Shown here one piece after another: positions 29,350 to 31,433 of a stretch of 60,000 nt of DNA (position 1 is its first letter; each line of letters begins with the position of its first letter). Position numbers and translations under genes: made by a program. The stretch lies in contig NW_024704742.1 in NCBI RefSeq assembly GCF_018977255.1, positions 47,804,001 to 47,864,000 of the forward strand. Reading direction: 5' to 3'. The DNA comes from Callorhinchus milii (Eukaryota). Below the pieces are notes generated by a model that did no database searches, had not been told where the DNA came from, and saw nothing but the letters and a program-made list of their open reading frames with translations.

Positions 29350-29355
29350 TTTATT
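29350..29355 (-). terminator. Polyadenylation signal for distal RPL9 exon
   Basis: AATAAA on minus strand ~35 nt after the TAA of exon b. Confidence 0.7.
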
Positions 29356-29389
29356 TCAGCCAGTGACTCGGTTCCAAGAGTTCACGGCT

Positions 29390-29499
29390 TTAATCAGTTT
29401 GTAGTGCAACCACGGTGCCCTTTTCGCTCACATATATACCATCCAGGAACTTCCTAATATCTTTCTTCCGCACTGTTGTTGCTTGTTGAATGAGAGCAG
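29390..29499 (-). CDS. RPL9: RPL9 last coding exon, distal duplicated copy (b); alternative terminal exon giving a 193-aa isoform
   Basis: Acceptor TGTTTTACCTTCAG|CT in the same phase as copy a; (A)[41 protein letters not shown] at 29350-29355. Confidence 0.85.
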
Positions 29500-31326
29500 C
29501 TGAAGGTAAAACAGACAAATATTAGTACCGTAGTCTAGAGGTCCAGAAACAGTAAAGCACCAAGGAGGTAGTTTATCTGAAGGTTCAAAAAGCAATGTTA
29601 GTATAGAAAGCAAACAAAGCAATATTAGTACAACTTTGCAGATTCCAGGAAAGATGTTTGGTGATAGTTTCCCTTTAATAGTTGGTTCTACCACTAAAAA
29701 TGATGCTTAGAAGACCAACTCCAGGGTCTAGACCAATCGCAGCCAATAGGCTAGGGTAGGGTAGGGTAGGCCAATCGCAGCACTTTAGCTGCAGCTCTGT
29801 CTGAGAACTATCGTAGCACAAAATTAGGATTCAAACTAATGATCGACTCGTCTGTATAGATTGGAGGTGATGTGTTCTAATACACTGGCCCATCAAGGGA
29901 GCCCAGCTCTTCTAAGTACCTATATAGGTCTTTTTGCTTTGGGAGAAATGTACATAAAAACCTGAGATTTCTGGATTAAATAATGCCTAATATGACCAGT
30001 TTCTACATTTTTTCTCCTGTATATCTGTTTAGCCAAGTCACATCAATATTAAATAGATATTAACCATCAAGAGGAATTTCCCATGTTCTCTCATCAGAAT
30101 GGTCCAAAATGTAGATACTCCACAATGGAAACCAAGCAGGTAGAATGAACGCATGATTAAAATCGGTTTATCTTCTCGATACGTTATTCCCTAAGCACCT
30201 AACTACTCACAGCCTCTAACAAGGGACACTGAAGCAAAAGGCAACCATAATGCTGCCTTTATATTACAGCTTTACCAATAGCAGCATTACTGCCACTGTG
30301 GGCAAATCTTCAATGAAGGTGCAGCAAACTACCTGGAGGAGTCTGGAGCTTCAAACAGCAGTCAGTTGACTAAAAGATAGATTTTTATTTTATGCATATG
30401 CTAAGAATGGCATACATAAAACACCATTACAATTACTGCTAACTGGGCAAAAACTGGAACTTCCGGCAGGAAGCTGTAGTTCAAGCAGAAAGCTATCCTA
30501 ATTAAGAGACTGGCTTCATATATGAGAGAGAAGGAATTATAGAAGGGGTGTATGTACCCTCATGTGGCCCATTTCTGTGCTGTAACAACCTATAAATTAG
30601 TCAATTCACTTTACAGTTTATTCTGTGAAGCACTTTGAGATGGTCTCAAAGCGATAAGGAGGTATATCAAATTATTATTTTATTATAATTGTATAAAAAA
30701 GGCCAGGAGGAACTGTATTTAGACAAATCACCTGCCACCATCGGCAAACTCTTTTAGAAGTTTATTTCCATGATTGCAGTTATGAAATAAAAAGGGAGAG
30801 GTTCAACAAAAAGATTTTTTTAAAAAGCGAAAGAAGCAAGGTAACAACTGAGATGTATTTTGGTTTAGATCAGAAGTTAGTCTGCTATTGTAAATGCTAT
30901 TTTAAATTAGCTTGGGGAGGAAACTAAGTTTTTTTATTATTTTTTGCTAAGTGTTAATAAAGGTACATATTTTAATGTACAATTTGCTGTTTCATGCAGT
31001 TAGTAGTCACCTTACAAGAAGTTGATCACACACTTTAGAAAAACAAAGGATTACTGTTTGGTCGTTCTGGTGGTCAGAACAGACACACAACAGCAGTCCA
31101 GGTTGTTAAGGGATAAAATCCTTTTATGGGATCGGCTGATAGGACAAACCGAACAAACAGTAACTTAATATAATAAGGCACGTGTGTTAAACCTGGAAAA
31201 GAAAAATGAGCGGCACTGGACAGCTGGATCTGTCTATCCAAATGAAGACGTTCCCTCTTCATACAACTCCATGCATGCCCGTTCCAATGGAGAAGGGCAT
31301 TTTCTAACCTGGAATCCATTGCATCT

Positions 31327-31433
31327 TTATGATGTGGGTTCAACAACTGTACCCTTCTCAGAGACGTAAATACCATCCAAGAATTTTCGGATATCCTTGT
31401 TTTTGACTGTTGTTGCCTGTTGGATCAGGGCAG
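31327..31433 (-). CDS. RPL9: RPL9 last coding exon, proximal copy (a)
   Basis: (A)[34 protein letters not shown]; followed 18 nt later by donor CAG|GTTAGA. Confidence 0.93.

What the first reader, a model, noticed from the sequence alone, without database searches (positions are those of the whole stretch)
29350..31433. RPL9 has two tandem copies of its last coding exon, both apparently under purifying selection (alternative C-terminal ribosomal protein isoforms)
Seen: 1.8 kb downstream of the normal last coding exon (31327-31433) lies a second copy (29390-29499) not recovered in the correct frame by the ORF track. It has an intact polypyrimidine/AG acceptor in the same phase, no indels, a stop and its own AATAAA. 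Over 30 aligned codons, 10 are identical, 18 differ synonymously (including Ser TCT/AGC and Arg CGA/AGG) and only 2 differ nonsynonymously (KNK to RKK); the tails differ (EPTS* vs ALQTD*). Inference: an old exon duplication kept as protein-coding, giving two uL6 variants from one gene with different C-termini and 3'UTRs. This is a candidate route to ribosome heterogeneity or RPL9 autoregulation. I do not recall this arrangement for human RPL9.
Basis: partly seen in the sequence, partly recalled or inferred. Interest (0 to 1): 0.88.

Follow-up and report, generated by a model that had tools for sequence, protein, structure and literature searches.

The report
Two alternative last exons of RPL9
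This fish ribosomal protein gene (RPL9/uL6) really has two ancient copies of its last coding exon that are used alternatively to make two slightly different proteins, but both forms are already in public sequence records.

Summary
On the minus strand, RPL9 has two copies of its last coding exon: a (31433-31327) and b (29499-29390). Both have AG acceptors in the same phase. Over 31 codons, 11 are identical, 18 differ synonymously and 2 non-synonymously. No neutral simulation matched this (0 of 100,000).

The window's exons translate exactly into two Callorhinchus milii records:
- isoform X1, 193 aa, using b;
- isoform X2 / NP_001279675.1, 192 aa, using a.

At least six AFK/AFM protein accessions exist for each form, so both are deposited expressed products. 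The same pair (a = KNK, b = R/KKK, order a then b) appears in rays, a shark isoform record and many teleosts. The duplication is therefore most likely older than the split of cartilaginous and bony fishes.

Sequence features and three teleost gene models suggest that a is a stop-bearing cassette exon spliced on to b. This is inferred, because no reads could be laid.

A zebrafish preprint notes Rpl9 isoforms on ribosomes. I found no paper describing the exon duplication. The isoforms are real, old and already annotated. Their function is unknown.

The parts
35786..35831 (-). RPL9 first coding exon (ATG at 35831; [15 protein letters not shown] + 1 base)
   Evidence: tblastn of P0160/P0165. The joined exons translate exactly to both records.
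35575..35690 (-). RPL9 coding exon 2
33843..33938 (-). RPL9 coding exon 3
33276..33408 (-). RPL9 coding exon 4
33109..33189 (-). RPL9 coding exon 5. Its donor CTG|GTTAGT is the one joined to either a or b.
   Evidence: Deposited proteins read ...ELVSNS|AALIQQ... with either ending.
31327..31433 (-). Last coding exon, copy a (KNK type, tail EPTS, stop TAA 31329-31327). Gives the 192-aa isoform.
   Evidence: 100% match to P0165 residues 158-192.
31307..31326 (-). 18 bases after the stop of a, followed by a donor-like site CAG|GTTAGA (GT at 31308-31307). This is the putative 3' end of a 125-nt cassette exon a.
   Evidence: The site scores 7 of 9 consensus positions, the same as 4 of the 5 real donors of this gene. 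Background is 1 such site per 328 nt, and none occurs within 150 nt after the stop of b. This is inferred and has not been seen in reads.
29390..29499 (-). Last coding exon, copy b (RKK type, tail ALQTD, stop TAA 29392-29390). Gives the 193-aa isoform.
   Evidence: 100% match to P0160 residues 158-193.
29350..29355 (-). AATAAA poly(A) signal 33 bases after the stop of b

Best explanation
The last coding exon of RPL9 (uL6) was duplicated in tandem long ago, most likely before cartilaginous and bony fishes split. Both copies have been kept as coding sequence.

The exon-5 donor (33109) is joined either to the acceptor of a (31433) or to that of b (29499).
- Choosing a ends the protein at EPTS (192 aa).
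- Skipping a ends it at ALQTD (193 aa), with K168R and N169K in the core.

My preferred sub-model (about 0.65, inferred) is that a is a stop-bearing cassette exon of 125 nt. Its donor, 18 bases after its stop codon, is spliced to b. In that case b and its AATAAA end both mRNAs, and the a-form escapes nonsense-mediated decay because its stop lies less than 50 nt from the last junction.

Both proteins are full-length uL6 and are presumably built into 60S subunits near the GTPase-associated centre. Whether they differ in function is not known.
For: Shown:
- The exon pair has an intact phase, acceptors and stops.
- Synonymous divergence is saturated, with 2 of 31 residues changed, and 0 of 100,000 neutral simulations matched this.
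- The whole 991.5-Mb assembly has only these two matches, 2 of 2 candidates scored. Copy b therefore does not come from another RPL9 copy.
- The window translates exactly to P0160 (193 aa, b) and P0165 (192 aa, a).
- Of the 13 members of the protein cluster, 11 are C. milii. Five distinct sequences end in b and four in a. Six AFK/AFM accessions are shown for each form, plus XP_007887307/8 (X1), XP_007887309 (X2) and NP_001279675.1 (a).

The same pair occurs elsewhere:
- Narcine bancroftii X1 (b) and X2 (a) lie on one contig, and Salarias fasciatus has X1 (b) and X2 (a).
- Cyprinus carpio has both. In Merluccius, one species has a and another has b.
- Heterodontus X2 is a. Skates, sturgeon and paddlefish show b-type.
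- Seven teleost gene models contain an a-part followed by a b copy, so the order is the same.
- The 31-residue core of this window's a is identical to a teleost a, and the core of its b is identical to carp b.

For the cassette sub-model:
- No canonical poly(A) signal lies within 350 nt after a, against 33 nt after b.
- The donor-like site after a is as good as the real donors of this gene.
- The linker peptides in the Aldrovandia, Oryzias javanicus and Lates models decode as an a-type tail read one base out of frame through its stop, plus about 11-23 bases, joined to b. The residue before the junction is Arg, which an intron read-through at a YAG acceptor cannot give (plus inference).

A preprint reports that 'alternative isoforms were evident for ... 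Rpl9 (uL6)' on zebrafish ribosomes (passages seen).
Against: - I saw no read-level junctions.
- That the AFK/AFM proteins come from cDNA clones is my inference. It rests on the species, the accession blocks and the full-length cDNA paper (passages), not on a tool result.
- XP records are model predictions.
- A single origin of b rests on few characters: N169K in all b copies, R168 in chimaera and most teleosts, one extra residue, and exon order. KKK at this motif also occurs in unrelated eukaryotes, so convergence is possible. I built no tree.
- The cassette donor could be chance: about 1 such site per 328 nt, so roughly 6% within 20 nt.
- The teleost models are automatic predictions. I decoded them without their DNA.
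- In zebrafish one variant of each pair was more than 10-fold predominant. That fits a minor, possibly redundant isoform there.
Confidence: 0.9

Rival explanations
1. Alternative last exons with separate 3' ends. The a-form mRNA is cleaved and polyadenylated between a and b, and b is reached only when a's acceptor is skipped. The two mRNAs then share no 3'UTR.
For: This is the simplest outcome of duplicating a terminal exon together with its 3' end. ATTAAA and AATAAA occur 350 and 388 nt after the stop of a, with further AATAAA at 560-937 nt.
Against: A 3'UTR of about 370-400 nt would be long for a ribosomal protein mRNA (general knowledge). A donor as good as the gene's real donors sits 18 nt after the stop. 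Three teleost models imply a junction from just past a's stop to b.
Confidence: 0.3
2. Both isoforms are made but are functionally interchangeable. The switch matters, if at all, for mRNA-level control (inclusion of a changes the 3'UTR), not for ribosome function.
For: Only two conservative core changes (K to R, N to K) plus a short tail separate them. In zebrafish one variant of each RP pair predominated more than 10-fold on ribosomes. Yeast and plant uL6 paralogues are discussed as largely dosage-related (passages).
Against: Both copies keep their own diagnostic residues and tail types across very distant fishes. That is not expected if either protein ending were dispensable. About equal numbers of deposited accessions exist for a and b in this species.
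Confidence: 0.35
3. Exon a (or b) is a 'poison' exon used for autoregulation of RPL9 through nonsense-mediated decay.
For: Several ribosomal protein genes are regulated by unproductive splicing (recalled, not tested here). Exon a carries a stop upstream of a possible junction.
Against: The stop of a lies only 18 nt from the putative junction, inside the NMD-immune zone. Both forms encode complete uL6. Conservation is at the amino-acid level with saturated synonymous change, the opposite of a regulatory RNA element. The a-form is the RefSeq NP record.
Confidence: 0.04
4. Copy b is a dead relic of a lost tandem RPL9 gene or a retrocopy fragment and is not used.
For: None beyond its position downstream of a complete gene.
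Against: It starts exactly at the exon boundary with its own acceptor. It is intact and under purifying selection. It ends five distinct deposited C. milii proteins and has intact counterparts in rays, sturgeons and teleosts. No other RPL9 last-exon copy exists in the assembly.
Confidence: 0.01

Closest known systems
Callorhinchus milii RPL9 records: isoform X1 (XP_007887308.1, 193 aa), isoform X2 (XP_007887309.1) and NP_001279675.1 (192 aa)
   Same: These are the same gene and the same two products. The window's exons translate to P0160 and P0165 without a single difference.
   Different: Nothing differs at the protein level. As far as I could see, the records do not state that the two endings come from duplicated exons.
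RPL9/uL6 isoform pairs annotated in other fishes (Narcine bancroftii X1/X2, Salarias fasciatus X1/X2, Cyprinus carpio, and others), and the zebrafish Rpl9 'alternative isoforms' seen on ribosomes (bioRxiv 10.1101/2024.08.29.610041)
   Same: They show the same a (KNK, 192 aa) and b (R/KKK, mostly 193 aa) endings. The zebrafish work gives protein-level detection on purified ribosomes (passages).
   Different: The tail residues differ by lineage. I could not see which zebrafish isoforms the preprint means: its figure is not held, and the supplement held lists rpl9 at gene level only.
Tandem-exon-duplication-derived substitution isoforms (for example SNAP25 exons 5a/5b, U2AF1 exons 3/Ab, and the human catalogue in PMC8373072 and PMC9741552; search listing and abstracts only)
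   Same: Adjacent homologous exons in the same phase, an ancient origin, both copies under purifying selection, and one copy per protein.
   Different: Here the duplicated exon is the terminal coding exon with its own stop. Exclusivity at the protein level needs no splicing incompatibility: if a is included, b becomes 3'UTR. The gene encodes a core ribosomal protein. It was not among the hits of my RPL9 searches.
Ribosomal protein paralogue pairs as a source of ribosome heterogeneity (yeast uL6A/uL6B, Arabidopsis RPL9B-D, vertebrate Rpl22/Rpl22l1)
   Same: Two versions of one ribosomal protein are available to the cell (passages).
   Different: Those arise from separate genes. Here one gene and one promoter make both, and the choice is made by splicing.

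Membership tests
uL6 / RPL9 (Pfam PF00347, Ribosomal_L6) | Full-length protein with the Ribosomal_L6 domain, orthologous to eukaryotic RPL9 | tested here: met
   The joined exons equal P0160 and P0165. The precomputed Pfam assignment for the cluster representative P0005 is PF00347. The match to solved 80S uL6 chains has E = 2.6e-110.
Tandem-exon-duplication-derived alternative exons | Two adjacent homologous exons in one gene, with the same phase and intact splice acceptors | tested here: met
   Exon similarity z = 20.8, while the flanks are not similar.
Tandem-exon-duplication-derived alternative exons | Each product carries exactly one copy in its coding sequence, and both products exist | tested here: met
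   Five distinct b-ending and four a-ending C. milii proteins of 193 and 192 aa. This rests on deposited records, because read-level junctions could not be examined.
Tandem-exon-duplication-derived alternative exons | Both copies conserved in other species (age) | tested here: met
   Both a and b types occur in Holocephali, Batoidea and many teleosts. Sturgeon and paddlefish show b, and sharks show a. No tree or clade test was run.
Stop-bearing cassette exon (a spliced on to b) | A functional donor downstream of a's stop, joined to b's acceptor | tested here: inconclusive
   A donor-like CAG|GTTAGA scores 7 of 9, 18 nt after the stop. The linker peptides of three teleost models fit such a junction. 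No reads were seen.
Alternative last exon with its own poly(A) site | A poly(A) signal and cleavage site shortly after a | tested here: inconclusive
   The first canonical signals lie 350 and 388 nt after the stop. 3' ends could not be examined.
Poison exon / NMD-coupled autoregulation of ribosomal protein genes | A premature stop more than about 50 nt upstream of the last exon junction, giving a non-productive product | tested here: not met
   The stop of a is 18 nt from the putative junction. Both forms encode complete uL6.

The most novel reading that the evidence does not exclude
The a/b choice is an ancient splicing switch, dating to the jawed-vertebrate ancestor. It builds two kinds of 60S subunit that differ next to the sarcin-ricin loop and GTPase-associated centre, is used in a tissue-, stage- or state-specific way in fishes, and was lost in tetrapods. 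This would be a natural, genetically tractable case of specialised ribosomes made by alternative splicing of a core ribosomal protein.
Probability: 0.15. Interest if true: 0.8.

Novelty: already known. Interest (0 to 1): 0.42.

Why it matters
Most claims of ribosome heterogeneity rest on paralogous genes or on sub-stoichiometric proteins. Here a single-copy core ribosomal protein gene keeps two alternative protein endings by splicing, apparently for several hundred million years, in cartilaginous and ray-finned fishes. Every tetrapod protein I saw has one ending only.

That long retention argues that the second ending does something. Zebrafish offers an easy test by deleting exon a or b. The isoforms themselves are already annotated, and one preprint notes them in passing.

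What I did not find in print is:
- the origin by exon duplication;
- the age of the duplication;
- the likely cassette layout.

These were sought. Only open-access papers and bioRxiv were searched.

Tried and rejected
**Read evidence.** The run search listed 14 runs, but no RNA holder was listed. No reads or contigs could be laid on the locus. Junctions, 3' ends and tissue use were therefore not examined.

**Short open reading frame from an a-b spliced mRNA.** The hypothetical form predicts one ending in exon b. I searched for it among proteins of 23-76 aa (162 hits, best 120 listed, 55 inspected). I found none from this species. All b-type hits were genomic-style frames or exon 5-b joins, so this was uninformative.

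**Metagenome contigs.** From, 80 loci were kept out of 383 relatives. They were scanned, together with the window's two own loci (82 in all). Only one metagenome locus (L003) is a fish b-type exon. It has AATAAA about 25 nt after its stop, but its 940 upstream bases hold no a copy. The rest are other eukaryotes.

**Other searches that found nothing useful.**
- Rfam on 28500-36800: no match.
- Inverted repeats in 29200-33300: only short pairs within single introns, with nothing linking the a and b regions.
- Earlier findings of this scan: nothing on RPL9.
- Supplement of the zebrafish preprint: rpl9 at gene level only.

**Not done.**
- No tree or clade test of a and b exons, because there are too few variable sites.
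- No DNA-level check for a b remnant in tetrapods, coelacanth, lungfish or gar, because no such genomes were at hand.

**Rejected readings.** Retrocopy or relic, and poison exon (see the rival explanations).

Full report
**What is in the sequence.** RPL9 (uL6) lies on the minus strand. Its coding exons are:
- exon 1: 35831-35786
- exon 2: 35690-35575
- exon 3: 33938-33843
- exon 4: 33408-33276
- exon 5: 33189-33109

Two copies of the last coding exon follow: a (31433-31327) and b (29499-29390). Both copies follow a pyrimidine tract and AG, and both start in phase 1 after the exon-5 donor CTG|GTTAGT. Each ends in TAA. AATAAA lies 33 bases after the stop of b.

Across 31 aligned codons, 11 are identical, 18 differ synonymously and 2 differ non-synonymously (K168R, N169K). 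Synonymous changes include TCT/AGC Ser and CGA/AGG Arg. The tails then diverge, EPTS* against ALQTD*.

**More than chance, and old.**
- 25 of 93 core bases differ, 19 of them at third positions.
- Nei-Gojobori pS is 0.92 (saturated) and pN is 0.064.
- A Fisher test of synonymous against non-synonymous change gives p = 2.6e-14.
- None of 100,000 simulations placing 25 random changes kept 2 or fewer amino-acid changes without a stop.
- Similarity stops at the exon edges. For 300 nt upstream z = 1.9, for 300 nt downstream z = 0.0, and for the exons z = 20.8.
- The pair is the only long direct repeat in 29200-33300.
- A six-frame search of the whole 991.5-Mb assembly found only these two places, 2 of 2 candidates scored. 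Copy b is therefore not a recent import from another RPL9 copy.

**Both copies are used, according to public records.** Joined in a script, exons 1-5 plus b give a 193-aa protein identical to P0160. Exons 1-5 plus a give a 192-aa protein identical to P0165. Both are Callorhinchus milii records, so the window is that species or something indistinguishable from it at this locus.

The 90%-identity cluster holding them has 13 members, 11 from C. milii.
- Five distinct sequences end in b: P0005, P0160, P0168, P0169, P0171. Their accessions are AFM89948.1, AFK10631.1, AFM86249.1, AFM86420.1, AFM85942.1, AFM86062.1 and XP_007887307/8 'isoform X1'.
- Four end in a: P0161, P0164, P0165, P0166. Their accessions are NP_001279675.1/AFM90930.1, AFM88609.1, AFK10552.1, AFM87446.1, AFM88206.1, AFM87982.1 and XP_007887309.1 'isoform X2'.
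- Two UniRef-only models carry an extra micro-exon or run into the intron.
- The tool shows at most four accessions per sequence, so these counts are lower bounds.

The variants differ by scattered single residues, as independent clones would. I infer that the AFK/AFM entries come from the full-length cDNA project of this species. That project made 6,778 protein-coding cDNAs from six tissues (PMC3466250, passages seen). The link between those accessions and that paper is my inference, not a tool result. I could not examine reads myself.

**The pair is widespread in fishes.** Searches with each exon's open frame returned many RPL9 proteins:
- 1,731 hits among 1,893 candidates;
- 2,063 among 2,264;
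- 162 among 182;
- the best 120 of each were listed.

Among the 349 proteins I held, 174 have the KNK (a-like) motif with a parsable end, 27 have RKK, 16 have KKK, 33 could not be parsed and 99 lack the LIQQATT word.

Named species with both forms:
- Narcine bancroftii X1 (b: KKK...PQTGE, 193 aa) and X2 (a: KNK...ETTA, 192 aa), on one contig.
- Salarias fasciatus X1 (b) and X2 (a).
- Cyprinus carpio, both forms.
- Merluccius, with a in one species and b in another.

Other named records:
- Heterodontus francisci 'isoform X2' is a-type.
- Skates, Rhinoraja 'isoform X2', sturgeon and paddlefish show b-type.
- Lampreys and every tetrapod sequence I saw are KNK only.

Seven teleost gene models hold an a-part followed by a b copy: P0003, P0004, P0007, P0010, P0012, P0013 and P0194. 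The order a then b is therefore the same as here.

The 31-residue core of this window's a is identical to that of a teleost a (for example P0037). The core of its b is identical to that of carp b (P0008). Yet a and b differ from each other within the species.

The simplest reading is one duplication before the cartilaginous-bony fish split, with b lost or never fixed in tetrapods. Several caveats apply:
- The diagnostic characters are few.
- KKK at this motif also occurs in unrelated eukaryotes.
- I built no tree.
- Absence from tetrapods was not tested at the DNA level.

**How the choice probably works.** What is shown is that exon 5 is joined to a in some products and to b in others. The 3' end of the a-form is inferred. 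Three observations favour a being a cassette exon spliced on to b.

1. No canonical poly(A) signal occurs for 350 nt after a's stop, whereas b has one at 33 nt. A teleost b exon on a metagenome contig likewise has AATAAA about 25 nt after its stop.
2. Eighteen bases after a's stop lies CAG|GTTAGA. It matches 7 of 9 consensus positions, the same score as four of this gene's five real donors, and it resembles the exon-5 donor GTTAGT. Such sites occur once per 328 nt on this strand, and none occurs within 150 nt after b.
3. Three teleost models (Aldrovandia, Oryzias javanicus, Lates japonicus) have short linker peptides between the a-part and b.
   - WSRINK..., NSK... and WSRISK... are exactly what an a-type tail (V/L-EPDQ*, EPEQ*) gives when read one base out of frame through its stop.
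   - About 11-23 further bases follow, and then b.
   - The residue before the junction is Arg. An intron read-through at a YAG acceptor cannot give Arg; the genomic-style frames end in Ser, Pro and the like.
   - This suggests the annotators' evidence contained a junction from just past a's stop to b.

If so, b ends both mRNAs. It is coding in one form and 3'UTR in the other. The a stop sits well inside the 50-nt zone that escapes nonsense-mediated decay. I put this sub-model at about 0.65 and separate poly(A) sites at about 0.3.

**What it does.** uL6 is part of the GTPase-associated centre and bridges the sarcin-ricin loop and uL11 (PMC6678285, passages). The two forms differ by K168R and N169K and by a 4- versus 5-residue tail.

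A zebrafish preprint states that 'alternative isoforms were evident for ... Rpl9 (uL6)' in proteomics of purified ribosomes, with one variant of each pair more than 10-fold predominant (10.1101/2024.08.29.610041, passages). Its held supplement lists rpl9 at gene level only, and its figure is not held. I therefore cannot say that those isoforms are a and b.

The uL6 chain of PDB 7oya/7oyb ends in the a-type tail found in the Danio rerio record P0342. Long retention of both endings argues for some function. Functional difference, tissue use and regulation are all untested. A poison-exon or autoregulation reading is not favoured.

**Novelty.** The isoforms of this very gene are already in RefSeq and GenBank. 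Equivalent pairs are annotated in other fishes, and one preprint notes them.

I found no paper that describes the duplicated exon, its age or its layout. The searches were: 8 papers, none relevant by listing; none; 1, irrelevant; listings, with four papers checked by passages. Subscription journals were not searched.

My verdict is a correct and well-read observation of an already annotated, little-discussed feature. It is of moderate interest as a ready-made test case for ribosome heterogeneity.

Noticed in passing
window 32675-32698 (minus strand), in the intron between exon 5 and exon a: A 24-nt micro-exon (acceptor ccccatag|, donor |gtgtttgg) adds GDVSGDQQ between ...VSNS and AALIQQ... in a 200-aa UniRef model (P0167). 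In a 175-aa model (P0170) it runs on into the intron to a stop. It is in frame and probably a minor or spurious splice form.
   Followed up: partly
proteins P0194, P0040 and many teleost a-type tails ending in Q*: In many teleosts the a exon ends ...Gln-stop. If this is written CAG TAA G, it contains the donor core GTAAG across the stop codon. The Gambusia model P0194 seems to use it (tail ...EADH followed by intron-like residues). This is a possible third splice choice that removes a's stop. It could not be checked without the DNA.
   Followed up: partly
window 39739-41306 and 41545-41869: About 1.5 kb of CA / CACACCCA microsatellite and a 14-nt minisatellite (about 21 copies) lie upstream of RPL9. 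They explain the GC 0.67 and strong skews in the composition profile.
   Followed up: partly
window 31792-31813 / 32066-32087: A 22-nt inverted repeat (91% complementary, 252 nt apart) lies inside the exon 5-exon a intron, next to a 20-nt tandem duplicate. Its significance is unknown. It could be a small hairpin-forming element.
   Followed up: no
window 28100-28900: Long open frames on both strands, rich in Pro/Ser/Leu, lie just downstream of the RPL9 3' end. They look like an interspersed repeat rather than a gene.
   Followed up: no
proteins P0001, P0002, P0006 (Populus hybrids, 536-553 aa): These poplar gene models contain several RPL9 units fused in one protein. They top the hit lists for that reason and are probably merged tandem genes.
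   Followed up: no
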